A stretch of 64,000 bases of DNA from a virus (IMGVR_UViG_2579778694_000005); one strand, 5' to 3'. Positions 22,344 through 64,000 are shown, counted from the first letter of the stretch. Numbers and translations: made by a program. Notes: generated from the sequence alone by a model not told the origin.

Positions 22344-22356
22344 AAGGATAAAAATC

Positions 22357-22560: not shown

Positions 22561-22563
22561 GCA

Positions 22564-27763: not shown

Positions 27764-27781
27764 TGAATCGCCACGGATAAT

Positions 27782-28594
27782 CTAGACACTTCCGAGCCGT
27801 TGATAATACTGGTTTTCATATTCTGTCGGTGACATCTGTTCGCTAGAACCATGCCGACGCTTACTGTTATAAAACATTTCGATGTAATCAAAAATATCAC
27901 TGCGGGCTTCTTCCCGCGTTCCGTAGATCTTTTTCTTTATCCGTTCACGTTTCAACAACTGGAAAAAACTTTCTGCAACCGCATTATCATGGCAGTTACC
28001 GCGACGGCTCATGCTACCCTCCAGGCCGTGTGATTTCAGGAACGACTGCCACTCATGGCTTGTGTACTGACTGCCCTGATCCGAATGAACCAGCACCTGT
28101 TTTTCGGGATTACGCCGCCATACAGCCATCAGCAGTGCGTTCAGGACAATGTCCTTTGTCATCCGGGATTGCATGGACCAGCCGATAATTTTGCGTGAGA
28201 ACAGATCAACAACAACGGCAAGATACAGCCAGCCTTCGTGGGTCCTGATGTAGGTTATGTCCGTTACCCAACGCTCATCAGGAGCATCCGGATTGAACTG
28301 TCGCTGGAGCCTGTTGGGTGACACGATACTGGCCTCGCCTTTACGTGCCCGCGGGCTTCGGTATCCGACCTGAGCCTTTATTCCGACACGTTTCATCAGT
28401 CTCCAGACTCTGTTTACTCCGCACTGTTGCCCGCTGTCACGCAGATCCAGATGGATTTTGCGATAACCATAGACGCATCCCGATTCCAGCCAGAACTGTT
28501 TAATCTGTCCTGTCAGTCTCAGGTCTGCCTGATGGCGTTGTGAATGCGGCTGCTGAAGCCAGGCGTAAAAACCACTGGGATGAACATCCAGCAC
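27782..28594 (-). CDS. IS3-family transposase OrfB (DDE catalytic domain; expressed as OrfAB by -1 frameshift)
   Basis: Motifs DITYIRT, HSDQGSQYTS, CHDNAVAESFF. The frame is open upstream to the slippery site. Confidence 0.8.
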   Translation of the reverse strand: MLDVHPSGFYAWLQQPHSQRHQADLRLTGQIKQFWLESGCVYGYRKIHLDLRDSGQQCGVNRVWRLMKRVGIKAQVGYRSPRARKGEASIVSPNRLQRQFNPDAPDERWVTDITYIRTHEGWLYLAVVVDLFSRKIIGWSMQSRMTKDIVLNALLMAVWRRNPEKQVLVHSDQGSQYTSHEWQSFLKSHGLEGSMSRRGNCHDNAVAESFFQLLKRERIKKKIYGTREEARSDIFDYIEMFYNSKRRHGSSEQMSPTEYENQYYQRLGSV

Positions 28595-28650
28595 CCGACA
28601 GAGCAGGCGAACAGGCCAGCAACAGGAGTTGTCACGGATAAAGGCGTACC

Positions 28651-28935
28651 TCAGTCGGACAGCTTTGCGAAGTACGCCGCGGCTTTTTTTAATATGTCCC
28701 GTTCGTCGGTAACCCGTTTCAGCTCTTTCTGGAGACGGCGGATCTCGGCCTGAGCATCTGACTGTTCTTTATTAGTGGAAGAATCCGGACCGTACTTCTT
28801 TATCCAGGCATAAAGGCTGTGGGTGGTGATATCGAGACGTGTTGCAACGCTGGCAACAGAATAACCGCGATCAACAACCTGTTTGACTGCTTCAGTTTTA
28901 AACTCTTCAGGATAACGCTTACCGCTCATGGGCAC
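28651..28935 (-). CDS. IS3-family transposase OrfA (HTH + leucine zipper)
   Basis: 94 aa ending ...ILKKAAAYFAKLSD. A AAA AAG-type slippery heptamer (TTAAAAAAAGCC, on the minus strand near 28685) for the programmed -1 frameshift. Confidence 0.75.
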   Translation of the reverse strand: MPMSGKRYPEEFKTEAVKQVVDRGYSVASVATRLDITTHSLYAWIKKYGPDSSTNKEQSDAQAEIRRLQKELKRVTDERDILKKAAAYFAKLSD

Positions 28936-28992
28936 CTCTCTTTAAGTCATCTTAAATGACTCTGAGGTGTCTGTTAAACGCGTGGCGATTCA

Positions 28993-51000: not shown

Positions 51001-51098
51001 CCATAAAATAGCCTGTTTTGTACAATGATTCCATACTTAATAGGTATGGAATCATTGAGAGTCGATTTTTTTAAATCTGAGAAACAAGCAAGATGATT

Positions 51099-51515
51099 TT
51101 AGCGGTTGTGAAAATCTTCAGCACAGGCTGAAAAGTGGGAGATTAACTGTGTGTTGGCGGCGCTCATGAGATCGTGTGCTGGGGTAACAAGTGCAAGAAT
51201 GGAGTATCTGTCCGGATTCCACAAATGCTGTGCATAAACTAAATAAGTATTACTCTTCTTCTGCCGATCTGGAGTGCGAGGTGGCCAGGGTTGTTCGTCG
51301 GGTAGCTTGATGTGGATGCGAGCGAGTTGAGCGTCTACGGCATAAGGTGGAAAAGTGAAGACGGCGTCATTGCCGAAGATATCCGTTGTGGCGTTGTGCT
51401 CCTTGCAGTAAATAAATTCGTCTATGAGCTGCTGTTCCAATCCAGGGAACTTATTGAAAGTGGGGTCTAAAAATTCGGCGCGTGTATCGGGGTTGATCTC
51501 GACAATCAGAGCCAT
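51099..51515 (-). CDS. hypothetical protein (138 aa)
   Basis: 10-bp overlap with the upstream gene. Confidence 0.45.
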   Translation of the reverse strand: MALIVEINPDTRAEFLDPTFNKFPGLEQQLIDEFIYCKEHNATTDIFGNDAVFTFPPYAVDAQLARIHIKLPDEQPWPPRTPDRQKKSNTYLVYAQHLWNPDRYSILALVTPAHDLMSAANTQLISHFSACAEDFHNR

Positions 51516-52030
51516 TTGGTCGAAGCCTCTGTGCCACTGGCTGCCAGAACAGCAAGAGCCGCATGGCTAATTTCTGATTCGCGAAGAGGGCTAACTGTCA
51601 GGATCTGATTAACCAGATTATCGAGATTTTTGGCCCCGTGACGCATCTCAGCGACAGCCCTGCATAGCTTGTATTCAGTGGAGTTTTTGTCGTAAGACCG
51701 GATGATCGACATCTCTGGTAATGCCTGGAATAAGAACTCGGCAATTGCCAGGGAGCCAATTACATCAGCACGCAAGCCTTCTGCGGCAAACTTTGCCTGC
51801 TCAAAATCATGTTCTGCTAGCGCATCCAGTCTGGCGTAAATTTCACGGCCATCAGCGGTGACTTCCTGGATTTTACCCACACTTTCGCGCAGTTCTGCGA
51901 GGGATGGTGCGCTCGCCCCTGAAGTAATAGCGCTGCGTTCATGGGTGTGGTCTTTGGCATAAGATCCGTGTGACAGGCTGCTTAGTGCCAGTGCCACAAC
52001 CATTGCGATTTTGGTGATTGAGTCTTTCAT
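51506..52030 (-). CDS. secreted hypothetical protein
   Basis: Signal peptide MKDSITKIAMVVALALSSLSHGSYA. Confidence 0.5.
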   Translation of the reverse strand: MKDSITKIAMVVALALSSLSHGSYAKDHTHERSAITSGASAPSLAELRESVGKIQEVTADGREIYARLDALAEHDFEQAKFAAEGLRADVIGSLAIAEFLFQALPEMSIIRSYDKNSTEYKLCRAVAEMRHGAKNLDNLVNQILTVSPLRESEISHAALAVLAASGTEASTKWL

Positions 52031-52126
52031 GATTTATCTGCCTGCTTTTTGCTGGCTCGTAACTAAGTGTACGCGTTCCCTGAAACTGCGACAAACAGAA
52101 ACGGCCCCAAAAGGAGCCGTATTGTA

Positions 52127-52375
52127 TTACAGGGTGCTCGCAAAAGCAGCAAATTCCGTATAACCCCCGATAGGTTCGCCATTTACGAACACCTGCGGTA
52201 TGGTTTCCACCGGCTTGCCAACCAGGTCGCTCAACTTCTCTTTGTCGATCCCGGCAGACACAATATCGATGTATTCATAATCGCCAAAGCCGTGGCCGTG
52301 GAGCTGCTTCGCCAGCTCGACCGCACGTTTGCAGTATGAGCAATTATCCCGTCCGTAGATAACGACCTTCATCAC
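52127..52375 (-). CDS. glutaredoxin/NrdH-like redoxin
   Basis: CxxC active site (RDNCSYCKRA), ~80 aa thioredoxin fold length. Confidence 0.7.
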   Translation of the reverse strand: MMKVVIYGRDNCSYCKRAVELAKQLHGHGFGDYEYIDIVSAGIDKEKLSDLVGKPVETIPQVFVNGEPIGGYTEFAAFASTL

Positions 52376-52737
52376 TTCACCTCGTGCAGCTGCTGCTTGA
52401 GAAGATAGCCTTCCAGGGGCCAGATTTTGGCAATCGCGTTCTGGCGTGCAATTTTACGTCCGATCTCCGGATCAAAGTTCTCCGGGCTGGCGCACGCAGA
52501 CTCGCCGGTTACGGTGTAGCCGTTCTCCAGCACAAGAACGCAGAAGGTCAGCAGTTCGAGTGATTGCGGGGCCGGTTCAGGCTCTTCCTGCTTCAGCCAC
52601 AACGGTGAGCTGCGATATCCGTCCGCGCCGGTAAAGTAAAACTCGCCTGAGATAACAGCTTCAATGCGTTCCGGGGTAACACGCGCGGCCGTTTTGCCTT
52701 TGGCCACAATCTCGTTTTCGATATCCATATCGGTCAT
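52372..52737 (-). CDS. hypothetical protein (121 aa)
   Basis: Overlapping start/stop with the glutaredoxin gene. Confidence 0.45.
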   Translation of the reverse strand: MTDMDIENEIVAKGKTAARVTPERIEAVISGEFYFTGADGYRSSPLWLKQEEPEPAPQSLELLTFCVLVLENGYTVTGESACASPENFDPEIGRKIARQNAIAKIWPLEGYLLKQQLHEVK

Positions 52738-52752
52738 TTTGGTTTCCTTACG

Positions 52753-52950
52753 TTAAAAACGAGCGATCCGAGCACGAAGAATCAGGTCATACGCCTTCAT
52801 CGTGTCCAGCTGCTTAATGAGGATGATGCGGTCGACATACAGCAGGCGAGCAAACTCGTCGCCGGCAATGTACGCCTCCAGTTCTTTGATGCGGCCACAC
52901 AGTTCTTCGTGTTCATCCATGACACGTTTCTGGTGTGGCAGGTACTCTTT
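52753..52950 (-). CDS. hypothetical small protein (likely start MTKEYL)
   Basis: The ORF-track version overlaps the PhoH 3' end. An internal start with RBS is more plausible. Confidence 0.35.
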   Translation of the reverse strand, partial: KEYLPHQKRVMDEHEELCGRIKELEAYIAGDEFARLLYVDRIILIKQLDTMKAYDLILRARIARF

Positions 52951-52966
52951 GGTCATTGGCTTTCCC

Positions 52967-53800
52967 TTACTGATAGGCTTCCAGTGCGACTTTGCATAGC
53001 TCAGAACGCACGCAGTCTTCGGTCGCAAACTCAATAAGGCCAACATGGGAGGAAGGTTTAAAACGCTCCAGTGCATCTTCCAGACCAGACTTAACATTGC
53101 CTGGCAGGTCGCATTGCGTCACATCTCCGTTCACAATGACGGTTACGTTCTCGCCCATACGGGTCAGAAACATTTTCATTTGTGACGCTGTAACGTTTTG
53201 CGCCTCATCGAGAATGACTACAGCATTCTCGAACGTGCGCCCACGCATGTAAGCGAAGGGGGCAATCTCTACTTTGGCCACCTCTGGCTTTAAGCAATAT
53301 TCAAGGAACGAGCCACCCAAACGCTTCTGTAGCACGTCATAGACGGGCCGGAAGAACGGAGCGAACTTCTCGCTCATGTCGCCCGGAAGGAAGCCCAGAT
53401 CTTCTTCTGCTTGCAATACCGGACGCGTCACGATGATCTTCCCGACTTCCTTATCCAGCAGACGCTGCGCTGCGACGGCAGCAGCCAGGTAGGTCTTGCC
53501 GCAACCGGCTTCACCAGTGGCGAACGTCAGAGGTTTGGTATCGAGAGAGATAAGATAGTGGGCCTGGGCCTCGTTACGCGCTTCGATGGGAGAGTTGTCG
53601 CGTTTAGGTTTTGGTGGCAGAGCAGGGGCGGCGGCCAGCTCGTCAAAGATGATTGTGTCAATTTCGTAGCCGTGGATGCGTGGTTTTGACTTCAGAGCCT
53701 GACGAGCTGCGCGACGCGCCTGTTTACGTTTGTTTCCCATATTGAGTCCTTTCAAGTGAGTAACTGAAAGAACTATACCGACAAATAATAGGTAAGTCAT
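52967..53800 (-). CDS. PhoH-like ATPase
   Basis: Walker A GEAGCGKTYLA, Walker B VILDEAQN, PhoH-family length. Confidence 0.75.
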   Translation of the reverse strand: MTYLLFVGIVLSVTHLKGLNMGNKRKQARRAARQALKSKPRIHGYEIDTIIFDELAAAPALPPKPKRDNSPIEARNEAQAHYLISLDTKPLTFATGEAGCGKTYLAAAVAAQRLLDKEVGKIIVTRPVLQAEEDLGFLPGDMSEKFAPFFRPVYDVLQKRLGGSFLEYCLKPEVAKVEIAPFAYMRGRTFENAVVILDEAQNVTASQMKMFLTRMGENVTVIVNGDVTQCDLPGNVKSGLEDALERFKPSSHVGLIEFATEDCVRSELCKVALEAYQ

Positions 53801-53853
53801 TACCTATTTTGCGTGTGTTATCCCTCTACCATGTAGAGGGGTATCTTCATGAC

Positions 53854-54645
53854 TCACGGCAGTTTTGCTCTAATTTCGAGTAATTTTTGTGCCGCGACAC
53901 TGATGTCATACGCCAGATCTTGGGTTTCGTTAATTATATCGTAATGGCGTTCAACCTCATCAGGGCGGAACTGTCTGATTTTGGGTATGTCTATATAGTC
54001 ATAATACCCGCCATACCCTCCAGCGCAATGCTGTCTGAACAGCGCCCGAAAGTTGTTAACTTTGCCGATCAACGCTATACGAAGTCCTTCTAAAACAACA
54101 TCATTGAAGCTGTAAAAGGGATTGTTTGCAATATCATCAAAAGCGTAGAGAGGGTCGGTAATGTTGGTACTTACTTTTACTCGGAACTGCTCGTTCTTCA
54201 GTATTTGGAGGTAGTTGTAATTAAAAATATCAGTAATAGAATTTAGAACACCGATGTCTCTTTCTGAGTAATTGTTTTGGCTCACCTGGTGCGTCATCTG
54301 GAGCAGTAGAGCTTGCTGAGTTTCGGCCTGCTGTTTCCAAAGTTTCAATTGTGGAGTGGAATAGACAACGTAGTCAGAGTCGATGAGTGCGGCATGTGAA
54401 CGACACATCCATATACCGTTATCAATCGAGCTTCTCTGTTCTTGGGTCAAACTAGAGTCATATCTCGGGCCGCCTTTTGCAGCTGCCGTAATATGGGCCG
54501 CAATCCCATTATTAATCCTGCCGTTTGGATTGCTGCTATCCGGGCCAACTGTTACCTGGTTGCAGCCAAGAAAAGAGCATTTCCAGCCTACGCGTTCGGC
54601 CAGTGTTCGCTTCACCGATTGGGGAAAATCATCTCTGTTACTCAC
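53854..54645 (-). CDS. HNH-like endonuclease domain protein
   Basis: Cys pairs (CSFLGC ... CRSH) and conserved His/Asn (AAHITAA...NGIWMCRSHAALID). Confidence 0.45.
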   Translation of the reverse strand: MSNRDDFPQSVKRTLAERVGWKCSFLGCNQVTVGPDSSNPNGRINNGIAAHITAAAKGGPRYDSSLTQEQRSSIDNGIWMCRSHAALIDSDYVVYSTPQLKLWKQQAETQQALLLQMTHQVSQNNYSERDIGVLNSITDIFNYNYLQILKNEQFRVKVSTNITDPLYAFDDIANNPFYSFNDVVLEGLRIALIGKVNNFRALFRQHCAGGYGGYYDYIDIPKIRQFRPDEVERHYDIINETQDLAYDISVAAQKLLEIRAKLP

Positions 54646-54685
54646 GTTTAACCTCGCTGTGTTTAAAAAATCATATGGTTGTTTG

Positions 54686-55267
54686 TTAGTGGCGTTTGTC
54701 TTCTTCCAGACGCGCCGTTTTTAAGTGTTTGTCGGTAAAGGTAAGTAACGTTACGCCCTCATCTTTATTCATGAAACCGGCACCGTTTATCATCATGATC
54801 AGGCGCTCTTTGCCGCGGAATACCTCATAATACTTTCCCGCTGCACATGACATTGTCTTGGCGCATTCCAGTCCATTCAAGGCTGTCTCATCAAATACCT
54901 GGTCTTTAGTGGCAACCGGCTTACCGTATTCTTTAGTAAGCATTTCGTCGAGCTGCATGAAGGTATATTTGCCGACGTTAGTAGTCATGCTCGACTCAAC
55001 TTTGCCGTCAATTAATCCACCAGTGGTATGCGGTTCCTTGCCTTCAGCCGCGGTTTTATCGAACAGAGCGAAGGCTTCGATGTTTGGGGTTCGTTTTTCA
55101 AAGTGGGTTTTGTACTGGCTCTCAAGAGCGTTTTTGTCTTGGCCTATCAGCGTGATTTTATCTACTTCAGACTCGTTACATCCCGTCAGAGCGAGCGCGA
55201 TCACCAGAGATGCGAGAATATTGAGGTTGCGCTTTTTCATTGGCTTATCTCCATGTTTTGCTGCCAC
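54686..55267 (-). CDS. lipoprotein
   Basis: Signal + lipobox ALALTGC. Confidence 0.55.
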   Translation of the reverse strand: MAAKHGDKPMKKRNLNILASLVIALALTGCNESEVDKITLIGQDKNALESQYKTHFEKRTPNIEAFALFDKTAAEGKEPHTTGGLIDGKVESSMTTNVGKYTFMQLDEMLTKEYGKPVATKDQVFDETALNGLECAKTMSCAAGKYYEVFRGKERLIMMINGAGFMNKDEGVTLLTFTDKHLKTARLEEDKRH

Positions 55268-55365
55268 ATCCTATCACCCACATGCAGGCAGTCTAATGCT
55301 GCCGTTGCTAAATGAAGGCCCAAAGGTGGTAAAACCATACGTGGAAATATTCTGGAGTCAACCCA

Positions 55366-55397
55366 GCAAAAAAGGGGCCGAAGCCCCTTTGATTTTT
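55366..55397 (-). terminator. rho-independent terminator downstream of tRNA
   Basis: GGGGCTTCGGCCCC followed by TTTTTT on the minus strand. Confidence 0.55.
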
Positions 55398-55458
55398 GCG
55401 CTAAAAAGTGTTGGTACAATGCTAGGAATCAATGGTTAAGAACGTCTGCCGTGTCTAT

Positions 55459-55541
55459 CACAGCGCTGAACGGTCTGGCGATATTTGCGGAGTCTTTCCG
55501 TTCGGACGGTGGTGGCGAACTCCAAACCGTTCAGCGCTGTG
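55459..55541. other. long hairpin: perfect 15-bp inverted repeat CACAGCGCTGAACGG/CCGTTCAGCGCTGTG enclosing a 53-nt loop with internal CCGTTCGGACGG stem
   Basis: Arms at 55459-55473 and 55527-55541, ending at the 3' end of the tRNA gene. Confidence 0.55.
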
Positions 55542-55542
55542 T

Positions 55543-55617
55543 TGGCGATGGTGGGTGGACTCGAACCACCGACCAGTTGATTAACAGTCAACCGCTCTAC
55601 CACTGAGCTACACCATC
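55543..55617 (-). tRNA. tRNA-Asn (anticodon GUU), CCA encoded
   Basis: Minus-strand cloverleaf: acceptor GATGGTG/CACCATC, D-arm GCTC-AGTGGTA-GAGC, anticodon stem GTTGA/TCAAC with loop CTGTTAA, 5-nt variable loop, T-arm GGTGG-TTCGAGT-CCACC, discriminator G + CCA. Confidence 0.85.
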
Positions 55618-56368
55618 ATTTTTCGCGGCGGTACTTGTTCATGGACAACCAGGCAACCAAGAACTTTCCCGCAACTTGCACTTTACGTTAGTGCCAGACG
55701 AGGCTTGTGGCTCGCTCACATAGAGCGAAGATCTGGAATCCTTCTCGGCGGTTGATGGCCGCCAGACTCTTCGATCTTATTGGATGTATGGAATCATCCA
55801 TGTTGTGAAACCAGGGTTACATAGGCAACAATGATTTCACCAGAGGGTTAAAGAATCCTGCTTTCACAACGTTGAGGCCACTGAACCGATTTATGTTCGA
55901 CCCAACATATCGATCAGTCACTACAGCTCTGTGGAATCACCTGTATGATTAAAAGAAAAACAGTGACCTCAACGTTGTGCGCTGGCTAACCAAGCCAGCC
56001 GGGTTACGTCGCCGCTTTTAACCCAAGATTAAACGACATAAGTAATGGAAATGACGTAACAGGATGGACGGTCAGCTGGCTGAAACCGGGATGATGGAAT
56101 GGAATGAGGAAAACCAACCGCCCATCCTGTTACTTCATCGAATAGGGCATGGGTGGTGCAACATGCCCTATCCTGCGTTCTGCAATCACACTCGCTCAGT
56201 GTGTCCCATTTCGGTGACGAGGCTGGAAACTGACCTCGCTGGTGTTTGGCTTCTTAGGCTACTGCCAGGTACGTATCTTCGTTTGCAGTTATATTTAACG
56301 TTCAAACAGTCGCGTCTCAACGAAAACAAGTGAATCTTATACACATTAGATAAGTAAGTAAATACTTA

Positions 56369-56671
56369 TTATTCTGTGACTCGTTCAGTTGCTATCTTTT
56401 TGATCAAACTCACCTTCTGTTCCGGCGTTCTCGTGATGATGGCCGTAAAACGCTTCGCTTGAATAGTGATAGTTTCGTTCTCCTTGAGTTCGCCGTAGTG
56501 AGTCTCCAGCAGAGAACCCAGGCGCCACAGACCGTCGTCTATGCGTTTATGGCTGGCAAATCTGATCAGCAGTAGCTTTACGATTAACTGACCAATGTAA
56601 AAGGCATATCCGAAGCCGGCCGCCACAAGGTAGGTTGCCAGCCACCAGTCGAATGAGGTCAAATTGCTCAT
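56369..56671 (-). CDS. membrane protein (100 aa; 1-2 TM)
   Basis: Hydrophobic N-terminus WWLATYLVAAGFGYAFYIGQLIVKLLLI. Confidence 0.45.
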   Translation of the reverse strand: MSNLTSFDWWLATYLVAAGFGYAFYIGQLIVKLLLIRFASHKRIDDGLWRLGSLLETHYGELKENETITIQAKRFTAIITRTPEQKVSLIKKIATERVTE

Positions 56672-56820
56672 TTCTGCACTCCCGTCTCGTGAACAACCCG
56701 ATACAGACGCTTACCGATGCGAAGCGTTTTGGTTTTCAGTTCCTGCCTGACCAGATCGCGACAGATACTGAAGCCGAGGGCCACGCCCCCAGCAAAAGAT
56801 AACAGGATGTATGGAATCAT
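56668..56820 (-). CDS. small membrane protein (50 aa; below ORF-track cutoff)
   Basis: MIPYILLSFAGGVALGFSICRDLVRQELKTKTLRIGKRLYRVVHETGVQK from minus-strand translation. Overlapping stops/starts. Confidence 0.4.
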   Translation of the reverse strand: MIPYILLSFAGGVALGFSICRDLVRQELKTKTLRIGKRLYRVVHETGVQK

Positions 56821-57032
56821 CAGAACGCCCCCGCCTCAGTCAATTGCTGTAACAGTGAGTGTCCTTTTTCAGTGAGTTGATAGTTCTCCACACATCCTTT
56901 TGGCGAAACGTTAGCGACAAGATTCATACGTTCCAGTTTGGCGCGGGTCTTTGGCTTCCAGTTGGCGTAGAACTGTTTCCACTGGCTGATTTCACGCAGA
57001 GTTTCTTTCTCCCGTTTACTTAACATGATCAT
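56820..57032 (-). CDS. hypothetical protein (70 aa)
   Basis: ATGA overlaps on both sides. Confidence 0.4.
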   Translation of the reverse strand: MIMLSKREKETLREISQWKQFYANWKPKTRAKLERMNLVANVSPKGCVENYQLTEKGHSLLQQLTEAGAF

Positions 57033-57196
57033 CCTTAATCTCCTTCAGTGTGTACGTGATATCTACAATGCGGTAAATGCGGCCGCGCCTCTGCATGACA
57101 CCGGCTTTTACGTAATCGTTGATGCAGCTGGACATAACCAGACTGCCGATAACAATGCCGACGACCAAAAATACAATCATCCAGCCGAGCATCAGT
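57023..57196 (-). CDS. small membrane protein (57 aa; below cutoff)
   Basis: MLGWMIVFLVVGIVIGSLVMSSC... from minus-strand translation. Overlaps the ligase start. Confidence 0.35.
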
Positions 57197-58514
57197 CTTT
57201 ATCTCCAATACGGTCTTCGGTATCTCGCAGACATTTCGGCCACTTCAGACGTGGGTGGCGTAAGCTACCGTCTGGCGTTTTCTCATGGCAGTGAACCTCG
57301 ACGATGCGTCCACGATACTTCTCCTGATTGTTCCAGATTTCATCCAGGTACTTATGCTTGATACCGCTGGCACGAACGATGACGCCGTTCTCCAGACGAA
57401 TCACTATCTTGCCCAGCGTATGTGCAAAGCCTGAGTCCGGGTCGCCTGGCTCGAAGTCGATGATTTCACCGTCTTCGGAATCCTCATCTTTCAGCTTCCA
57501 CCAGCTGCGGGTACGCTTGAACTCGTAAACAGAATCCGGATCTTTGCCCATCTCCCCCTCTTCGTTCTCGTCCAGGCGCTTCATGAAGCGTTCGATAAAG
57601 TCTTCATGGCTATGGATGATGTAGAACGGATGCAGGTGGATATCTTGCGCGTAATCTTCCCCGCAAGTGTTGCGGAATAACGCCACCAGCATAGCCAGGC
57701 GCTCTTTCAGCTTCATGCCGGTCTTCAGGTACTCTTTGCTTTTTGCCTGAGCACGCCACTCCGGTAAGAAGAAATCGAAGATATGGTAAACGGCACCAAT
57801 GGCTGTCACGTTCTTCTTGCGAAGCGCCGACACGGACTGGTTGAACGTACCTGCAGTACCCTCACCATCGAAAAAGATGTGCTTGAAACCGGAGAGTCTG
57901 CCTCGCTCAAGCATGGCTGGTTTAAGGTGATCGAGTGACGTAATCGGATTGCCGGTACGCGTCAAGAAGTTCACCTCTTCCTCGTCAACGATAACTTCGC
58001 AGATAACCCGGAGACCATCGAGTTTGAGGCTGCCGATCATTGGCCACTTGGCCTTTGGGTTTTGTTTAAATGGGTATTTGTCGCCTTTCTCCTTGTACGG
58101 AGACGCCAGCTGTACCTCAAACTTCGGAATTGGGTTTTCGAACACCTTGTTGCACAGGCTAATGCCGACGCCGGCTTTCGGATCTTTCAGCAGGAAGCGA
58201 CGAAACACGTCCTGCCCGTCAGCGCACATTGAGGCAACGAGTGATTCGACAGCAGTAATGGCCGCGTTCCCGGTCAGTTCGCGCGCCGCCAGCTTCTCCA
58301 GCAGCTCGACTACCTTCTGATCGCTGGGTACGGAAGTATCGAGTGGCTCGGCCACTTTGTACTTCTTCACACCGAATCGAATGAATGGGTTGAGCATTAG
58401 CGAGACCATGCTCTGCTCAAATTCATCAAGGTTGGCCAGCGCCTCTTTCTTGGCGTTGGTTCCCATCGTTTTTATGGCATCCAGCTTGTGCTTTAGGGCG
58501 ATCAGTTTTTCCAT
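57192..58514 (-). CDS. ATP-dependent DNA ligase
   Basis: Adenylation motif I KLDGLR (IGSLKLDGLRVI). Length 440 aa. Confidence 0.75.
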   Translation of the reverse strand: MEKLIALKHKLDAIKTMGTNAKKEALANLDEFEQSMVSLMLNPFIRFGVKKYKVAEPLDTSVPSDQKVVELLEKLAARELTGNAAITAVESLVASMCADGQDVFRRFLLKDPKAGVGISLCNKVFENPIPKFEVQLASPYKEKGDKYPFKQNPKAKWPMIGSLKLDGLRVICEVIVDEEEVNFLTRTGNPITSLDHLKPAMLERGRLSGFKHIFFDGEGTAGTFNQSVSALRKKNVTAIGAVYHIFDFFLPEWRAQAKSKEYLKTGMKLKERLAMLVALFRNTCGEDYAQDIHLHPFYIIHSHEDFIERFMKRLDENEEGEMGKDPDSVYEFKRTRSWWKLKDEDSEDGEIIDFEPGDPDSGFAHTLGKIVIRLENGVIVRASGIKHKYLDEIWNNQEKYRGRIVEVHCHEKTPDGSLRHPRLKWPKCLRDTEDRIGDKD

Positions 58515-58548
58515 TAGTGTTTAACCTCCATCGGTCGCTCGGGAGTTT

Positions 58549-59025
58549 TCATGTGTTTTCTTTGGTTGCTTCTTCAATGAGTGCCGCGTACACGTCAGTG
58601 ACGGGCGCCAGTGAATCGGTGGACGTGGTTTCGGGTTTGGCTGGTTCTGTTTTCTTCGTGCGTTTAACCAGACTGTTAATCGTCATGGTGTTGCGCTTCC
58701 GGGTTAGCGTTCTGGCGTGGTCGTTTTGCTCTTCCACTTCTTTGATAAGCGCAGCCATATCGATGAAGTAGAGCTGTTCGCCTTTGCGGATCTCTTCGAC
58801 CATCATCTTCAGCGCCTGGCATTTGCCAGCAGCAATGGCCGCAGCGCAGGACTGGAACGATGTCGCCGGGAGGCGCTTCTCTTTGTAGGCGAGGATGGTG
58901 TGCTGGCAGACTGTATAGCTGCAATGGGCCTCATGGCCGTTGATCTTCACTTCCGGACAGCGCAGCGAATAACCGTTGTTTCCGGAGATAGACGGGATTT
59001 TCGACAAATCTGTTCTTGTGGACAT
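58549..59025 (-). CDS. Cys/His-rich (zinc-finger-like) protein
   Basis: CPEVKINGHEAHCSYTVCQH pattern. Confidence 0.4.
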   Translation of the reverse strand: MSTRTDLSKIPSISGNNGYSLRCPEVKINGHEAHCSYTVCQHTILAYKEKRLPATSFQSCAAAIAAGKCQALKMMVEEIRKGEQLYFIDMAALIKEVEEQNDHARTLTRKRNTMTINSLVKRTKKTEPAKPETTSTDSLAPVTDVYAALIEEATKENT

Positions 59026-59063
59026 GCTTCTAACCGTAGTCGTGTACTTACTTATTAAGCGCA

Positions 59064-59088
59064 GTTTAAAAAAGCCCCACCAGGGGGC
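59064..59088 (-). terminator. rho-independent terminator
   Basis: GCCCC-CTGGT-GGGGC + TTTTTT on the minus strand. Confidence 0.5.
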
Positions 59089-59106
59089 TAAATGGTTTTT
59101 CGAGGT

Positions 59107-59901
59107 TTACCAGGTCGCCCAGCCAGTCATTTTGTCCTGAGCGGCTTCGAACCGGTATGGCTCCAGTAAATCGTTGGCATGGTGGACGGCGTATGATTTT
59201 GCCTCCTGTTTAATCATCGGCAGCTCGTTGGCCAGGCGTGCCACCTGCCCTGCAAAACTGGCGAGCACACCGTCACATGCCTGACCCGCGTCAACAATGA
59301 TGCGCACCAGGTCTAAGTCGCTGCGGCACATATCGCAGATGATGCCGTATTCCACCTCACGAATGCGCTCAACGGCTTTTTTGGTATCGCCACTGACCAC
59401 CAATTCCAGCAAACCAGGCGGTGTTGTCAGATCGGTAACGCGTTCGGTAACTTCAGGCAGTTCGACAATGCTCAGGAACGCCGCGATAGACGGATCATCC
59501 TCTACACCAGCCCTGCCTTTGATCGCGCGAAGAGTTGCGTCGACAATTTCCTCAAATCGTTCACCTTCATCACACACCGCCTGATTGGTGTAGACAACGC
59601 GACCGTCGTACCATGCACCGGCACGTACTTCGACCGTTGCGTCCTTCATTTTGCGAGTGAACGCCACGAGTGCCGCGCGTTTCTGTTTAACACCAGGCAG
59701 CTCCGGGGACTCTCCAAAACGAACCCATACCCGCATGTATTTCGAGCCTTCCCCAAGAGGTGCTGTGCTCACAGACGTGGCGATGTGCTCCAGCGCAGTT
59801 TGGATCGCCTCATCGATAATCTTCTGGCGCTCTTCTGTATCAATTTCTACGCCTGATTTGTCGATAATTTCGGTAACGGACTTCTGAATATCTGCTTTCA
59901 T
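59107..59901 (-). CDS. hypothetical protein (264 aa)
   Basis: ORF with own RBS. Upstream of the terminator. Confidence 0.45.
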   Translation of the reverse strand: MKADIQKSVTEIIDKSGVEIDTEERQKIIDEAIQTALEHIATSVSTAPLGEGSKYMRVWVRFGESPELPGVKQKRAALVAFTRKMKDATVEVRAGAWYDGRVVYTNQAVCDEGERFEEIVDATLRAIKGRAGVEDDPSIAAFLSIVELPEVTERVTDLTTPPGLLELVVSGDTKKAVERIREVEYGIICDMCRSDLDLVRIIVDAGQACDGVLASFAGQVARLANELPMIKQEAKSYAVHHANDLLEPYRFEAAQDKMTGWATW

Positions 59902-59981
59902 AAAGGTTCCTCAATTCCTTCGTCGAGCATATTCTTACAGAAAAATAAGTATGTATCTACTTATCATTAAAGGCGTGCAAT

Positions 59982-60662
59982 TTATACAAGAGCTTTAATG
60001 CCGAGTACCTTGCTTTGTAGCTCCAACTGTCTGGAGTACGGCTTGGCACGATAATAGGCTTTTAGTATCTGCTCTGGCGTCGCGTCGCCGGGGTCGAGAC
60101 CTTCTTCGCCCAGACAGGCCACTTTGACATTCAGTCCGATGCTGGTGAGACGTTTGGCCGCTGACATGGTGTTGCGGATCGCTTGCTTTTCGCTGTCCCA
60201 CATCATGATGACGTTGCGTAATCCACGCGCCTTGAGCGTCAGGAACGCGCCTAACTGATCTTCAGCGTCCTCATTCATATTTCCGGACAAGTGCATCCCG
60301 AACGTGCCAATTGGCTCTACATAATCCCGCAGCGTCTCTTCGTCGAAGATGGCTCGCTTCACGCCCATTACGTCAAATGCCCCTTCACACACAACGACCG
60401 TTTGTTTTCCGACTGCATTGTGGCCGTTGTAGAGAAACTTACCCGACGCCGGCAGCTGCATGGGGAAGAGATAACGGCGTTCTGCTGCACCGGTAATGTC
60501 ACGCCCCTGGAAGGTCTTCATCACGCCATCCAGATCGTAAACCGGTATCAGGATGCGCATATCAAACACCTGCCCTTTGACCTGGTCTGTGTACGGATCG
60601 ACGTATGCGTGCTTGCCTTCGACGCAGTAACGCAGATCGGGGTTTGAGGGCCAACGATGTAA
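59982..60662 (-). CDS. Toprim-domain protein (primase-like); probable GTG start near 60662
   Basis: Toprim motifs VVVCEGAFDVMGV (E) and MMWDSEKQA (DxD). The frame is open upstream of the listed ATG to a GTG. Confidence 0.55.
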   Translation of the reverse strand, partial: LHRWPSNPDLRYCVEGKHAYVDPYTDQVKGQVFDMRILIPVYDLDGVMKTFQGRDITGAAERRYLFPMQLPASGKFLYNGHNAVGKQTVVVCEGAFDVMGVKRAIFDEETLRDYVEPIGTFGMHLSGNMNEDAEDQLGAFLTLKARGLRNVIMMWDSEKQAIRNTMSAAKRLTSIGLNVKVACLGEEGLDPGDATPEQILKAYYRAKPYSRQLELQSKVLGIKALV

Positions 60663-60836
60663 AAAACCACGTTAATAGGTTAACCTATTGTTTTATTTTA
60701 ATTATTAGGTGCTGCATTTACAGCTACTCCAATGATCATGGGGCTGATGGTCGATGGAACGCAATACCAAGTAGATTGATTGCATAAAGTTCCTTCAATT
60801 CCGATCTGCCCTCCCGTTTTCACATCCTACTTCAGT

Positions 60837-62903
60837 TCAATTTTGTTGCCATTCCTTTACAACAGCTTCCCAATTGGCCGTTCTCTCGACCAATTTCCCA
60901 TCAGCATCCTTTCTTGTCCAAACATCCCAGAAATCAGGGTCATCAGAATGGGGTTGCTGCTCTTTCGTCAAATTTTTCATTTTAACTAAGACAGGAAGTT
61001 CAGATGCCCAGCCCATCAGTATTGCATGTTGAGATGGCAATGAAGGCAATTCACGGAGTAATCCTCGCAAATTGTCGGGTACCATTTTATGAACTTGCTC
61101 CTGATCTTTGTCATTGCTAATTCGATGCAGAAGAAAAGTATTACATTGAGATAAAACTGTAGGTGATAATTCTGATGGTCGTTGCGAAGAAATAACCATA
61201 CCGAGACCAAATTTCCTGCCTTCTCGTGCAATTTTCTCAAATACTTGACAGCAAACAGCTGCGACATCCTGATTTTCACTGTCCTCACGATACCGTTTAA
61301 TAAATGTATGTGCTTCTTCAGCAACAAGTACCGTAGGTAAAGATTTGTTATATAGTCGTCTATAACGTTGCAATGATTCAAAAATAATTCTTGAAATGAC
61401 AGCTGTCACAAGATGAGTAATTTCAGTTGGTACTAAAGAAAGATCAATAATTGAAACGCAGCTATCACCATCACCATCTTTCCCAATATATGTTTCTAAC
61501 CAATTAGCCAAGTCAACTCTATGCTCTGAGTCATTGGTTATGGGTTTCATTCTTGTATCCGCAAGCATTGTGCGTATTCTAGCTACTAGATATTCAACAT
61601 ATTGCTCGCTACCATTTTCTTGTGCTAACGCCTCTAAATAGGAGACTAAATTATTTCCGTCAAAAGGGACGGGGATATCCTCGTTTTTAGGAAGGAGTTC
61701 ACACTCATCGCCTCCAAGGCTCTGAAATGAAGATAACACTCCATTTATGATGTTATCAACTGCGCTAACTTTAGCATTGTAATCTGGATATCTGCCTTCT
61801 CTTTGCCCACAAAAATCTTGAATAGAGATGATTAATTTATCTAGCTCAGGGCATGGTGTAGTTAATCTCGCTTTGTATTCTTCCAGACTCTGACGCCAAA
61901 TATTAATTTTAGCCAAAAGATTTTTGGCTCCAGGGAAATCATTAAGTGCCGCTGCTCCTTTAGATTTATCCGCTTTTAAAGAAACCAAAATTGTACCTAG
62001 GTATTTTTTAACTTCTATATCTATATTCTTTTGTAAATCAAATTCTTCATTTCTCATTGCTCTCAAGGAGCGTTTTAGTAATGGAAGTTGTGCTTTAGGA
62101 CTTGCTTGCGTGAATGATGCCCACTCCGAACTATTCCAAAACCATGAGGGTACTTGTAATTGGTTTTCACTGCCTTCAGCCTCAACCTTAAATACTCTAC
62201 CTTTAAATTTCGTCGTTGGCCCCAAAGCACGTGCATACTCGCCGTTGGGGTCTAGGATGATAAATCTGGCATTTGGTTTTATTTGTGATTCCAATGCAGA
62301 TTCGAGTGACCACTGGATTAATCCAGATACAGAGCAAGACTTACCGCTACCAGTATTTCCGAGCACTGCTATATGACGACCAAATAATCTATCAGGATCT
62401 ACAGCTACATTTGCATTGTTCGCAAGTGGACTTTGTCCAATGATCACTCGCCTATTATTTCCAGATTCGACTATTGATCTAAGTTGTAAATCTGTCGGTA
62501 GTAAAATAGCAGCCCCAATAGAAGGAAACGATTCAGAACCTCGTTGAAATCTGAAATAATCAGTACCATCTTTGGACAAACGTTTAAGCATTCCCACCGG
62601 ATTCAAACTTATTTTTTTTCGGGGGAATGGTAGATTTACTAAACCAAATTCTTGAACATCTCTTTGTTTTGGATAAGGCGAATGTTCTACAGCAAGCCAC
62701 TCTATTTGCCCAACTAAGTAACCATTATCACATGATATTAATACATAACTGTTTACTCTTGGAAAGTTTCTAGGCGTTCCTGCATTCAAAGCAACAGTAT
62801 CAGGTGAGTCAATCTCTAATATTGCTCTAATTTCATTAGGTGAAACAAAATCTACAGTGCCGACCCTGAGTTGCTCACCTTGTTCAATCGGAAATGAGTT
62901 CAT
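60837..62903 (-). CDS. herA: HerA-like (FtsK/HerA superfamily) ATPase of SIR2-HerA defence pair
   Basis: 688 aa. Walker A GNTGSGKS. Walker B-like VAEEAH not confidently assigned. Strongly AT-rich versus neighbours. 4-bp overlap with the upstream SIR2 gene. Confidence 0.7.
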   Translation of the reverse strand: MNSFPIEQGEQLRVGTVDFVSPNEIRAILEIDSPDTVALNAGTPRNFPRVNSYVLISCDNGYLVGQIEWLAVEHSPYPKQRDVQEFGLVNLPFPRKKISLNPVGMLKRLSKDGTDYFRFQRGSESFPSIGAAILLPTDLQLRSIVESGNNRRVIIGQSPLANNANVAVDPDRLFGRHIAVLGNTGSGKSCSVSGLIQWSLESALESQIKPNARFIILDPNGEYARALGPTTKFKGRVFKVEAEGSENQLQVPSWFWNSSEWASFTQASPKAQLPLLKRSLRAMRNEEFDLQKNIDIEVKKYLGTILVSLKADKSKGAAALNDFPGAKNLLAKINIWRQSLEEYKARLTTPCPELDKLIISIQDFCGQREGRYPDYNAKVSAVDNIINGVLSSFQSLGGDECELLPKNEDIPVPFDGNNLVSYLEALAQENGSEQYVEYLVARIRTMLADTRMKPITNDSEHRVDLANWLETYIGKDGDGDSCVSIIDLSLVPTEITHLVTAVISRIIFESLQRYRRLYNKSLPTVLVAEEAHTFIKRYREDSENQDVAAVCCQVFEKIAREGRKFGLGMVISSQRPSELSPTVLSQCNTFLLHRISNDKDQEQVHKMVPDNLRGLLRELPSLPSQHAILMGWASELPVLVKMKNLTKEQQPHSDDPDFWDVWTRKDADGKLVERTANWEAVVKEWQQN

Positions 62904-64000
62904 TCAGCATCCTCGCTATTATTTGAAATTGTTGTACGATATAAACCCCTTGATTTCAATAGTTCTGCCATACGAATTGATGATCTGTCTATCGCTGCTT
63001 TAGGAAGATAAAAATCCACTAAATTCTTGATATCTCCAAAGTGGTCACCAAGTAATAAAGATATTTGAGCTTTTCTTCCACTTTCGTTTACAAAGCGCAT
63101 AATTCTACCGAGTGGATCGCCGTAGGCAATTATTACTATATGCGTTGAGGGTATTGTCAGCATGTCAATAATAACACGGTTTATATGTTCATCTCCAAAA
63201 CTATAACCATATGTTACCAAAGTACTATTAGGACGACATGTTGCAGATGCTAAGTCTCTGAATAGTTCAACATAAGGGTATTCTGATGTTTCTCGGTCTT
63301 TAACCGAGTTTGGATAAATCATTAATTGATGATAGTTCGCTGCTCCAGCAGCCTCCACTTGTAAAAAGGGTTCCACCGAACTCGCACCAAAAGGTAATCC
63401 AAATCGCCTTATGGCTCCTTCGGTAGTATACCAGTCCAATGAGCCATGTAATTTAGTAAAGCGCGCCACACCTTCCAAATATCTTGGTTCACCACGAATA
63501 CCCGGTGGATTATAATGATAGTCGACTTCTAGTCGCGAAGATCTGAAAATAGGCGCTATAGTACCAACAAATCTGTCAATTAGTCGAATACCTGCTATTT
63601 CAGCTCCTGCTTCAATTATCCTGTCGTAATTCGTCGTGAAAATATGTAATCGATCCCTTGTCGCTGTTCGACTTGAAAAACTCATCAAAAAACTTACTAA
63701 ATAATTAAACGTTTGTGTTTTTAAATCGTTTTTTGCATCGCGAATTAACTTTTCCCCATTACTAACTGAATCTGAGAATAATTTCAAACATCTTGTTAGC
63801 TCATTATTTAACTCAACTAACTCACTTTTTAAATTTCGATATGGGAGAGCACCAGGAGGCGGTTCTGGAAGTGGGAGATTTTGCGCAGTTAAAATCTCTA
63901 ATCCTTTAATTAACTCATTAATTGAACGGATTTGGTCTTCAATATTACCTCTTCCTCTTCCTGAGGCTTCAGCTGTTTTAGCTACATAACTATCTATTTC
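62900..64000 (-). CDS. SIR2-family (NADase-type) protein, N-terminus beyond window end
   Basis: Sirtuin-fold motifs HIFTTNYD and KLHGSLDW. The frame is open from 64000 with no stop, so the listed TTG start is internal. Confidence 0.7.
   Translation of the reverse strand, partial: EIDSYVAKTAEASGRGRGNIEDQIRSINELIKGLEILTAQNLPLPEPPPGALPYRNLKSELVELNNELTRCLKLFSDSVSNGEKLIRDAKNDLKTQTFNYLVSFLMSFSSRTATRDRLHIFTTNYDRIIEAGAEIAGIRLIDRFVGTIAPIFRSSRLEVDYHYNPPGIRGEPRYLEGVARFTKLHGSLDWYTTEGAIRRFGLPFGASSVEPFLQVEAAGAANYHQLMIYPNSVKDRETSEYPYVELFRDLASATCRPNSTLVTYGYSFGDEHINRVIIDMLTIPSTHIVIIAYGDPLGRIMRFVNESGRKAQISLLLGDHFGDIKNLVDFYLPKAAIDRSSIRMAELLKSRGLYRTTISNNSEDAE

What the first reader, a model, noticed from the sequence alone, without database searches (positions are those of the whole stretch)
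60660..64000. AT-rich SIR2-HerA anti-phage defence operon carried as cargo next to a Toprim gene
Two overlapping minus-strand genes encode a SIR2 protein (TTNYD and HGS motifs; N-terminus off-window) and a 688-aa HerA-like ATPase (Walker A GNTGSGKS). The segment from ~60660 onward is far more AT-rich than the flanking phage DNA. That points to horizontally acquired cargo inside a phage/phage-plasmid backbone rather than host chromosome. A mobile virus carrying an NAD-depleting abortive-infection system would use it against competing phages.
Basis: partly seen in the sequence, partly recalled or inferred. Interest (0 to 1): 0.75.

Follow-up and report, generated by a model that had tools for sequence, protein, structure and literature searches.

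The report
SIR2-HerA defence genes on a transposon
The AT-rich end of the window is a real SIR2-HerA anti-phage gene pair, but it is the cargo of a widespread 7.4-kb Tn3-family transposon that jumped into, and split, the DNA primase gene of an SSU5-like phage-plasmid, so it is a known defence system delivered by an ordinary route.

Summary
herA (60837..62903, minus strand, 688 aa, Walker A GNTGSGKS) overlaps by 4 bp the 3' part of sir2 (62900..>64000, TTNYD and HGS motifs). Both match PADLOC SIR2-HerA models over nearly their full length (E 3.6e-247 and 4e-137). GC falls from 51.4% to 38.6% (z = -5.2).

The boundary is sharp, at 60638|60639, not about 60660. At 60639 a 38-bp Tn3-family terminal inverted repeat begins.

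The pair is the passenger of a 7,431-bp unit transposon: IR, herA, sir2, tnpR, res, tnpA, IR. Its TnpA is 82% identical to that of Tn1000/gamma-delta. At least 81 PLSDB plasmids carry it, and other copies have 5-bp target duplications.

Here it sits inside the primase (Toprim) gene of an SSU5-like phage-plasmid, at codon 153, flanked by a GATCT duplication. A contig 100% identical to the last 14 kb of the window shows the backbone resuming after the transposon.

So "acquired cargo in a phage-plasmid" is right. The claim that a virus uses it as a weapon is doubtful, because the carrier is a plasmid-hopping transposon and it broke a phage replication gene.

Activity (phage-triggered NAD+ depletion) is inferred from conserved catalytic residues and dN/dS of about 0.06; it was not shown. 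This is a known system in a modestly interesting context.

The parts
59982..60638 (-). 3' fragment (codons 154-371, holding the Toprim domain) of the phage-plasmid DNA primase gene. It is cut off from its start codon and zinc-finger N-terminus by the transposon.
   Evidence: The intact 371-aa homologue in pEh18_1 (L003 9983..11098) matches Pfam DNAG_N and Toprim_2. The insertion lies after CDS nt 459. The frame has no start codon until an internal GTG/ATG. Homology to all relatives stops at 60638.
60634..60638 (.). One copy of the 5-bp target-site duplication (AGATC on the + strand, GATCT in primase sense).
   Evidence: The uninterrupted primase reads ...TACTTTGATCTGCGTTAC.... In L096 and in pFY-1.p1, GATCT is present on both sides of the inserted element.
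60639..60676 (.). 38-bp terminal inverted repeat (herA-proximal end) of the Tn3-family transposon: GGGGTTTGAGGGCCAACGATGTAAAAAACCACGTTAAT.
   Evidence: It matches 33 of 38 positions of the inverted copy at the tnpA end, 7,431 bp away. The same ends are found in seven other plasmid copies. Its first 16 nt are identical to the gamma-delta/Tn1000 IR.
60677..60836 (-). 160-bp non-coding spacer between the IR and the herA stop codon. It contains a 16-bp palindrome, AATAGGTTAACCTATT (60674-60689).
   Evidence: Read directly from the sequence. No function was tested.
60837..62903 (-). herA: 688-aa HerA/FtsK-type ATPase with Walker A K188, D218, and Walker B region VAEEAH (527-532).
   Evidence: PADLOC HerA E 3.6e-247. 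Pfam DUF87. PDB relatives are HerA of Paenibacillus SIR2-HerA 8WIV (7e-49) and E. coli Nezha 8J4U_M (1e-31). dN/dS is 0.059 against the E. coli variant.
62900..64000 (-). sir2: the 3' 1,101 nt (residues 98-463 plus stop) of a 463-aa SIR2-family NADase gene, with catalytic N221 and H282. The first 97 codons lie beyond the window end.
   Evidence: Translation. PADLOC SIR2 E 4e-137. The full gene was read in identical copies. N221/H282 align with S. aureus Sir2 N226/H287 (PMC11514289). dN/dS is 0.059.

Best explanation
The segment from 60639 to the window end is the herA-proximal arm of a 7,431-bp Tn3-family unit transposon related to gamma-delta/Tn1000. Its layout is IR, herA, sir2, tnpR | res | tnpA, IR. 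Its passenger is a complete SIR2-HerA anti-phage system.

**How it arrived.** The transposon inserted by TnpA-mediated transposition into codon 153 of the DNA primase gene of an SSU5-like phage-plasmid of the Enterobacter cloacae complex. It duplicated GATCT at the target.

**Origin of the cargo (inferred).** The AT-rich cargo was probably captured from low-GC marine Gammaproteobacteria and now travels between Enterobacterales plasmids.

**Expression (inferred).**
- sir2 starts 8 nt after the tnpR stop, and its Shine-Dalgarno lies inside tnpR.
- herA is translationally coupled to sir2 (ATGA overlap).
- The pair is therefore probably transcribed with tnpR from the resolvase-repressed res promoter, at a low constitutive level.

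**Function (inferred from characterised relatives).** SIR2 oligomers dock on a HerA hexamer. On phage infection the complex is activated, SIR2 hydrolyses NAD+ to ADP-ribose and nicotinamide, HerA contributes ATPase and DNA-nicking activity, and the infected cell arrests growth (abortive infection).

**Who benefits.** The beneficiary is the host, plasmid and transposon. The phage-plasmid lost an intact primase and may be impaired as a virus.
For: **Identity of the pair**
- PADLOC hits over nearly the full model length and Pfam hits.
- PDB relatives are all SIR2-HerA systems.
- Catalytic N221/H282 align with the experimentally defined N226/H287 of S. aureus Sir2. Walker A K188 is present.
- sir2 lies directly upstream of herA in 78 of 80 related loci across phyla.
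- dN/dS is 0.059 for both genes against a 94%-identical E. coli variant.

**Transposon**
- 38-bp IRs.
- TnpA is 1002 aa with DDE_Tnp_Tn3 (E 1e-152); TnpR matches Resolvase.
- TnpA is 82% identical to gamma-delta TnpA, and the layout is the same.
- Perfect 5-bp duplications flank 4 of 7 other copies.
- 81 PLSDB plasmids and 32 E. coli genomes hold at least 80% of it. About 28 of the listed plasmid copies, in Serratia, Klebsiella, Enterobacter and Citrobacter, are shown as 100.0% identical.

**Insertion into the primase**
- Homology to SSU5 and to all relatives ends at 60638.
- The intact gene is present in pEh18_1.
- Logan contig L096 is 100.000% identical to window 49982-64000. It reads DnaB, primase N-fragment, GATCT | transposon | GATCT, primase C-fragment.
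- 22 of the 24 contigs read show the same junction.

**Cargo origin**
- GC is 0.39 for herA and sir2 against 0.51 for tnpA.
- Relatives at 73-87% identity in Vibrio, Shewanella, Marinomonas and others lie in 39-46% GC surroundings with no TnpA or TnpR within 7 kb.

**Operon**
- Sequence at the gene junctions.
- No promoter signal above chance inside the unit.
Against: - No expression or activity data exist for this subtype in anything I could read.
- Its closest solved relatives are distant (SIR2 against Nezha E 1e-21, and only over residues 178-407).
- The trigger is unknown.
- What lies beyond 64000 is read from identical or near-identical public copies, not from the window itself.
- Co-transcription with tnpR is inferred from gene spacing only.
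- That the primase is needed for the lytic cycle is assumed. Two relatives carry independent 1-bp deletions in the same gene, so it may be dispensable.
- All morphogenesis genes seen look intact, so the element might still form virions.
Confidence: 0.8

Rival explanations
1. One reading: the phage-plasmid is still a working temperate virus. SIR2-HerA is a phage-borne weapon that excludes competing phages from its lysogen and travels in virions.
For: - The backbone is a true SSU5 relative.
- Terminase, a 526-aa portal ORF, capsid, tape measure and tail genes are intact in the sister plasmid pFY-1.p1, and the window is collinear with that part.
- SSU5-like phage-plasmids carrying transposon cargo can be induced and packaged (PMC9600943).
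- Defence systems on phage-plasmids are documented (bioRxiv 10.1101/2025.09.12.675607).
Against: - The insertion splits the primase between its zinc finger and its catalytic/Toprim part.
- Surveys report that insertions in SSU5-type elements avoid conserved phage genes.
- The same transposon sits in at least 81 plasmids, mostly conjugative or non-phage.
- No record among 50,697 phages holds it or a close HerA.
- The window's plasmid also has an IS-associated 19-kb loss of nrdAB, thyA and other nucleotide-metabolism genes.
- pFY-1.p1 has grown to 138.7 kb against 103 kb for SSU5.
Confidence: 0.2
2. The pair acts mainly as an addiction or stabilisation module for the transposon or plasmid, as proposed for toxin-antitoxin pairs in Tn3-family elements, rather than as phage defence.
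For: - SIR2 NADases are toxic when unleashed.
- The genes sit in the transposition module next to tnpR and are probably co-regulated with it.
- The neighbouring composite in pFY-1.p1 also carries a HEPN/MNT-like pair.
Against: - Every experimentally studied SIR2-HerA behaves as phage-triggered abortive infection.
- The same pair occurs without any transposon in 70 or more chromosomal loci.
- No antitoxin-like labile partner is evident.
Confidence: 0.07
3. The genes are inert hitch-hikers, with no function in Enterobacter.
For: - Foreign codon and GC composition (38.6% against 51%).
- No dedicated promoter was detected.
Against: - Both ORFs are intact in every copy examined.
- dN/dS is about 0.06 across a dS of about 0.5.
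- Catalytic residues are conserved.
- Shine-Dalgarno sequences and translational coupling are preserved.
Confidence: 0.05

Closest known systems
SIR2-HerA / Nezha anti-phage systems: E. coli NCTC 11129 (PDB 8J4U, 8SU9), Paenibacillus sp. 453MF (8WIV, 8W9L, 8WLD), S. aureus (8YHO, 8YHX)
   Same: - A two-gene operon with sir2 upstream of herA.
- SIR2 catalytic Asn/His at the same 61-residue spacing as S. aureus Sir2.
- HerA Walker A/B ATPase.
- Nearly full-length match to PADLOC SIR2-HerA models.
   Different: - A separate sequence subtype: SIR2 against Nezha gives E 1e-21 over the C-terminal half only, and HerA against its best PDB relative gives E 7e-49.
- SIR2 has a longer N-terminal region, about 175 residues with no PDB match.
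- No biochemical data exist for this subtype that I could tie to it.
E. coli Sir2-HerA types I-III (Zhang et al., NAR 2026, PMC13434337)
   Same: - That study mined E. coli genomes for all sir2-herA pairs. A 94%-identical variant of this pair is present in 32 of 5,426 complete E. coli genomes, so it was probably among their eight clusters.
- Their type III HerA mutants K188A (ATPase) and D218A (nickase) coincide exactly with K188 and D218 here.
   Different: - Their catalytic Sir2 mutant is N238A, whereas the conserved Asn here is N221.
- The E. coli variant cannot be extended 17 codons upstream.
- No accession numbers are available. Identity with type III is an unresolved lead, not a finding.
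Tn1000 (gamma-delta) of the F plasmid and the Tn3 subgroup of Tn3-family transposons
   Same: - 38-bp IRs starting GGGGTTTGAGGGCCAA.
- Divergent tnpA and tnpR around res.
- A passenger slot between tnpR and the IR.
- 5-bp target duplication.
- TnpA 82% identical.
   Different: - TnpR is only 46% identical.
- The passenger is SIR2-HerA instead of the 698-aa P-loop protein of gamma-delta or the bla gene of Tn3.
- I found no published name for this transposon.
SSU5-group phage-plasmids carrying transposon cargo (Pfeifer et al. 2022, PMC9600943; bioRxiv 10.1101/2025.09.12.675607)
   Same: SSU5-like backbone that acquires Tn3-type transposons with accessory genes. The sister plasmid pFY-1.p1 also carries Tn3-blaTEM-1 in the usual PhoH-to-ligase hot spot.
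   Different: Here the insertion is in a conserved replication gene rather than the usual plastic locus, and the cargo is a defence system rather than an antibiotic resistance gene.

Membership tests
SIR2-HerA defence system | SIR2-family protein with the catalytic Asn and His of the NADase site | tested here: met
   N221 (TTNYD) and H282 (HGS) align with S. aureus Sir2 N226/H287 and with the same motifs in Nezha Sir2 (residues defined in PMC11514289). PADLOC SIR2 E 4e-137.
SIR2-HerA defence system | HerA/FtsK-type P-loop ATPase partner | tested here: met
   Walker A GNTGSGKS (K188) and Walker B region VAEEAH. PADLOC HerA E 3.6e-247 over residues 5-687. Pfam DUF87. PDB HerA hits come from SIR2-HerA complexes.
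SIR2-HerA defence system | The two genes are adjacent and co-oriented as one operon | tested here: met
   4-bp ATGA overlap. The same arrangement is found in 78 of 80 related loci.
SIR2-HerA defence system | Assembly of SIR2 oligomers on a HerA hexamer into a supramolecular complex | not testable with these tools
   Known for the Paenibacillus, E. coli and S. aureus systems. No multimer modelling is available here.
SIR2-HerA defence system | Phage-triggered NAD+ depletion with abortive-infection phenotype | not testable with these tools
   Needs phage challenge and NAD+ measurement.
Tn3-family unit transposon (Tn3/Tn1000 subgroup) | Terminal inverted repeats of about 38 bp beginning GGGG | tested here: met
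   60639..60676 in the window. The partner IR lies 7,431 bp away in identical copies, matching 33 of 38 positions.
Tn3-family unit transposon (Tn3/Tn1000 subgroup) | TnpA of about 1000 aa with the Tn3 DDE domain | tested here: met
   Off-window, in identical copies: 1002 aa, DDE_Tnp_Tn3 E 1e-152 plus DUF4158. 82% identical to gamma-delta TnpA.
Tn3-family unit transposon (Tn3/Tn1000 subgroup) | Serine resolvase TnpR and a res site between divergent tnpR and tnpA | tested here: inconclusive
   TnpR matches Pfam Resolvase at 3e-39. A 159-bp AT-rich intergenic region is present, but the resolvase-binding sub-sites were not mapped.
Tn3-family unit transposon (Tn3/Tn1000 subgroup) | 5-bp target-site duplication on insertion | tested here: met
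   GATCT at the primase site. AGTGT, TTTAT, TTATG and GTATT flank four other copies.
SSU5-group phage-plasmid (backbone) | Sequence relatedness to phage SSU5, with phage morphogenesis genes and a plasmid replicon on one circular molecule | tested here: met
   96.5% identity to SSU5 up to the breakpoint. The window is collinear at 99.996-100% with pFY-1.p1, which is IncFIB with repA, terminase, portal, capsid and tail genes.
SSU5-group phage-plasmid (backbone) | Production of infectious virions | not testable with these tools
E. coli type III Sir2-HerA (PMC13434337) | Residue numbering of the published catalytic mutants (HerA K188, HerA D218, Sir2 N238) | tested here: not met
   HerA K188 and D218 match, but Sir2 position 238 is Ile and the conserved Asn is N221. 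It is not filed as type III.

The most novel reading that the evidence does not exclude
Gamma-delta/Tn1000-like transposons may form a guild of 'defence transposons'. In this reading the passenger slot downstream of tnpR, expressed from the resolvase-controlled promoter, holds interchangeable immune modules:
- SIR2-HerA in this element;
- two TIR/ThsB-like proteins in a sister element;
- an uncharacterised STAND-like P-loop protein in classical gamma-delta.

By landing in a replication gene of a phage-plasmid, such an element would turn a virus into a defence-bearing plasmid lineage that then persists and spreads.
Probability: 0.25. Interest if true: 0.5.

Novelty: new member of a known kind. 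Interest (0 to 1): 0.35.

Why it matters
- It is a concrete, well-bounded example of an anti-phage system moving on the same Tn3-family transposon traffic that spreads resistance genes among clinical Enterobacterales plasmids. Listed copies in at least four genera are shown as 100.0% identical.
- It shows such a transposon entering a phage-plasmid through a conserved replication gene. This gives a natural test case for two questions: whether phage-plasmids decay into plasmids, and whether an abortive-infection system can coexist with the lytic programme of the virus that carries it.
- It does not reveal a new kind of defence mechanism.

Tried and rejected
1. I first assumed the whole window equals plasmid pFY-1.p1, and noted Tn3-blaTEM-1 as lying in the window. 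A whole-window alignment rejected both. The window lacks that Tn3, and an IS3-family element takes the place of 19 kb of pFY-1.p1. So the 33.3-kb composite beyond the SIR2-HerA unit in pFY-1.p1 need not follow the window.
   - Contig L096, 100% identical to the last 14 kb, shows the simple 7.4-kb insertion.
   - The composite in pFY-1.p1 has a chimeric tnpA with one crossover. This fits later homologous recombination rather than a different insertion event.
2. Identity with the published E. coli type III system: the HerA numbering fits, the Sir2 numbering does not, and no accessions are available. Left open.
3. Promoter and terminator scan across the unit: 14 promoter-like sites against 13.0 expected, so it is uninformative.
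4. Exact search for the primase|IR junction in IMG/VR viral contigs: no match.
   - A HerA search there found one 52%-identical relative at the edge of a contig with moron-like genes. It is not informative for this element.
5. Look-up of the 195-aa GTG-start version of the truncated primase: not on record. The 192-aa ATG version worked.
6. Literature searches for a named Tn3-family SIR2-HerA transposon found nothing. This is absence from the held library, not proof of novelty.
7. A PADLOC scan of the AT-rich stretch at 19-23 kb failed because I used wrong coordinates. I did not repeat it.


Full report
**1. The observation**

The two minus-strand genes exist as described.
- herA is an intact 688-aa ORF at 60837..62903, with Walker A GNTGSGKS.
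- The sir2 frame is open from its stop at 62900 to the window end. That gives 366 residues containing TTNYD and HGS.
- The genes overlap by ATGA, with GAGGA 8 nt upstream of the herA start.
- PADLOC gives HerA PDLC04098 at E 3.6e-247 (residues 5-687) and SIR2 PDLC04079 at E 4e-137. Pfam gives DUF87/HerA and SIR2_2.
- The segment 60639..64000 is 38.6% GC. Equal-sized windows elsewhere have mean 51.4%, sd 2.5% and minimum 44.8%, so z = -5.2.

The boundary needs correcting from about 60660 to 60638|60639.

**2. What the boundary is**

Similarity to Salmonella phage SSU5 (96.5%) and to hundreds of SSU5-like plasmids stops at window position 60638 in every record except one. That position lies inside a gene.
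- In the sibling plasmid pEh18_1 the Toprim ORF is the C-terminal part of a 371-aa primase. It has a zinc finger (residues 41-66), a DnaG-type core and a Toprim domain (residues 235-337).
- In the window only codons 154-371 remain, with no start codon until an internal GTG/ATG.
- At 60639 begins GGGGTTTGAGGGCCAACGATGTAAAAAACCACGTTAAT, a typical 38-bp Tn3-family end.

**3. The mobile unit**

Identical copies show the complete element: IR, 160-bp spacer, herA, sir2 (463 aa), tnpR (189 aa, Resolvase), a 159-bp AT-rich intergenic region, a divergent tnpA (1002 aa, DDE_Tn3 at E 1e-152), and the second IR (33 of 38 match). The total is 7,431 bp.

Relation to gamma-delta/Tn1000 of the F plasmid:
- TnpA is 82% identical, the layout is the same, and the first 16 nt of the IR are identical.
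- TnpR is only 46% identical.

Distribution:
- At least 81 PLSDB plasmids carry 80% or more of the unit.
- About 28 of the listed copies are shown as 100.0% identical. They come from Serratia, Klebsiella, Enterobacter and Citrobacter, mostly on conjugative IncF-type plasmids.
- Variants of 93.6% and 84.6% identity occur in Morganella, Raoultella, Providencia and E. coli. 32 of 5,426 complete E. coli genomes hold the unit.
- Four of seven other copies examined have perfect 5-bp target duplications: AGTGT, TTTAT, TTATG and GTATT.

It is therefore a self-mobile transposon that moves with its SIR2-HerA cargo.

**4. What follows the window**

This needed care. The only PLSDB record with the same junction, E. 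hormaechei pFY-1.p1, is 100% identical to window 55580-64000. But the window is not that plasmid.
- The window lacks pFY-1.p1's Tn3-blaTEM-1. The empty target site is at 55580-55584.
- At 27764-28992 the window has an IS3-family element in place of 19 kb of pFY-1.p1 (SbcCD-like genes, nrdAB, thyA, DHFR and others).

Looking up the truncated primase product (192 aa) in public assemblies returned 24 contigs. In 22 of them herA lies next to the primase fragment. The longest, Logan DRR201994_117 (L096), is 100.000% identical to window 49982-64000. It reads: DnaB-like helicase, primase N-fragment, GATCT | 7,431-bp transposon | GATCT, primase C-fragment, then ligase, PhoH and integrase.

So the most likely continuation of the window is the rest of sir2, tnpR, tnpA, the IR, and then the phage-plasmid backbone again.

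In pFY-1.p1 the same two transposon ends and the same GATCT duplication bracket a 33,314-bp composite. It contains:
- a sister transposon with two TIR/ThsB-like proteins;
- a PLD nuclease and a HEPN/MNT-like pair;
- a mer operon, IS4321 and an ars operon;
- the SIR2-HerA unit.

The composite also occurs on a K. michiganensis plasmid, at 98.8% identity end to end and without a duplication. In pFY-1.p1 the outermost 1.63 kb is 100% the SIR2-HerA transposon, and everything inward is 100% the K. michiganensis type. That is a chimeric tnpA with a single crossover. The simplest history is a simple insertion first, as in L096 and probably in the window, followed by homologous recombination with a composite-bearing plasmid.

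**5. Origin of the AT-rich cargo**

Within the unit, GC is 0.39 for herA and sir2, 0.43 for tnpR and 0.51 for tnpA.

A scan of species-representative genomes found 80 loci.
- sir2 lies directly upstream of herA in 78 of them.
- TnpA and TnpR accompany only the Enterobacterales copies.
- The next relatives, at 73-87% HerA identity, are in Vibrio, Marinomonas, Shewanella, Neptunomonas, Marinospirillum, Glaciecola and similar genera. Their surroundings are 39-46% GC and contain no transposase.

Capture from such low-GC marine Gammaproteobacteria explains the composition step. This is an inference.

**6. Is the pair functional, and how would it work?**

Shown here:
- Both ORFs are intact in every copy examined.
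- dN/dS is 0.059 for each gene against the E. coli variant, at dS of about 0.5.
- SIR2 N221/H282 align with the experimentally defined catalytic N226/H287 of S. aureus Sir2, and with the same motifs in E. coli Nezha.
- HerA has Walker A K188 and an acidic Walker B.

Inferred from characterised relatives:
- SIR2 oligomers bind a HerA hexamer.
- The complex gains NADase, ATPase and DNA-processing activities, depletes NAD+ on infection and aborts it (PMC11472057; PMC11514289; PMC13434337).

Inferred from spacing:
- sir2 (GTG start) begins 8 nt after the tnpR stop, with AAGGA inside the tnpR 3' end.
- No promoter signal above chance lies inside the unit.
- The pair is therefore probably expressed with tnpR from the res promoter. 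In gamma-delta and Tn3 that promoter is repressed by resolvase (established knowledge).

The trigger is unknown.

**7. Relation to known systems**

- This is a known system family, and the subtype already has its own PADLOC models.
- It is distant from the solved examples. HerA against Paenibacillus 8WIV gives 7e-49. SIR2 against Nezha 8J4U gives 1e-21, over residues 178-407 only.
- A 2026 study classified E. coli Sir2-HerA into Nezha plus types I-III. Its type III HerA mutants K188A and D218A coincide with this HerA, but its Sir2 N238A does not fit N221, and no accessions were available. I leave this open.

**8. Consequences for the phage-plasmid**

- The insertion separates the primase zinc finger from its catalytic and Toprim part, so no intact primase can be made.
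- The lineage nevertheless persists in many sequencing runs, so plasmid maintenance does not need it.
- Morphogenesis genes look intact in pFY-1.p1.
- Whether virions are still made cannot be decided here.
- Surveys report that cargo in SSU5-type elements concentrates in one plastic locus and avoids conserved phage genes. That makes this site unusual.
- No phage record among 50,697 holds the transposon or a close HerA.

**9. Verdict**

- The system is a new member of a known kind: a known defence family on a Tn3-family transposon, in a phage-plasmid gene.
- Interest is moderate to low for mechanism. It is modest for mobile-element ecology.

Noticed in passing
window 27764-28992: An IS3-family insertion sequence (OrfA 94 aa at 28651..28935 minus strand, OrfB 270 aa at 27782..28594 minus strand) sits where the sister plasmid pFY-1.p1 has 19 kb of SbcCD-like, nrdAB, thyA, DHFR, methylase and other genes. 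This looks like an IS-associated deletion of the phage-plasmid's nucleotide-metabolism block.
   Followed up: partly
window 55580-55584: The empty 5-bp target site at which pFY-1.p1 carries a 4,950-bp Tn3 with blaTEM-1. The window's plasmid lacks this resistance transposon.
   Followed up: yes
L002 1964-8182 (pFY-1.p1) and L011 12791-18994 (K. michiganensis plasmid): A sister gamma-delta-like transposon carries, in the same passenger slot, a ThsB-type TIR protein (Pfam ThsB_TIR 1e-18), a DUF1883-TIR protein (PADLOC PDC-S66 6e-71, ThsB 2e-43) and a 235-aa protein with no match. This may be a second NAD-targeting defence cargo.
   Followed up: partly
L012 4303-6399 (F plasmid, Tn1000/gamma-delta): Classical gamma-delta carries a 698-aa protein with Walker A GRRGTGKS in the slot where this element carries SIR2-HerA. 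Its only matches are candidate defence models (PADLOC PDC-M36A 2e-11) and weak ORC/CDC6-like and AAA_16 Pfam hits.
   Followed up: partly
L099 and L100 (relatives without the transposon), primase CDS nt 449 and nt 372: Two relatives each have a different 1-bp deletion that splits the same primase gene into 182-aa and 192-aa ORFs. Either the primase is decaying in this lineage or these are assembly errors.
   Followed up: partly
L002/L001, pFY-1.p1 record 1964-35277: A 33.3-kb composite (TIR transposon, PLD nuclease, HEPN/MNT-like pair, mer operon, IS4321, GNAT, ars operon, SIR2-HerA transposon) shares the window's insertion site and GATCT duplication. Its left tnpA is a chimera with a single crossover at about 1.63 kb.
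   Followed up: yes
window 60674-60689: A perfect 16-bp palindrome, AATAGGTTAACCTATT, overlaps the inner edge of the transposon IR, downstream of herA. Its function is unknown.
   Followed up: no
L015 4-2082 (IMG/VR UViG 3300006021_000061): One viral-collection contig encodes a 52%-identical HerA at its very edge. It lies next to a glycosyltransferase, a methyltransferase and a DNA-repair-like gene, and may be a prophage moron region.
   Followed up: partly
window about 19400-23000: The second most AT-rich stretch of the window (1-kb bins at 40-44% GC; minimum 44.8% for a 3.4-kb window). It corresponds to hypothetical genes and a regulator in pFY-1.p1. It was not analysed because my one attempt used wrong coordinates.
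   Followed up: no
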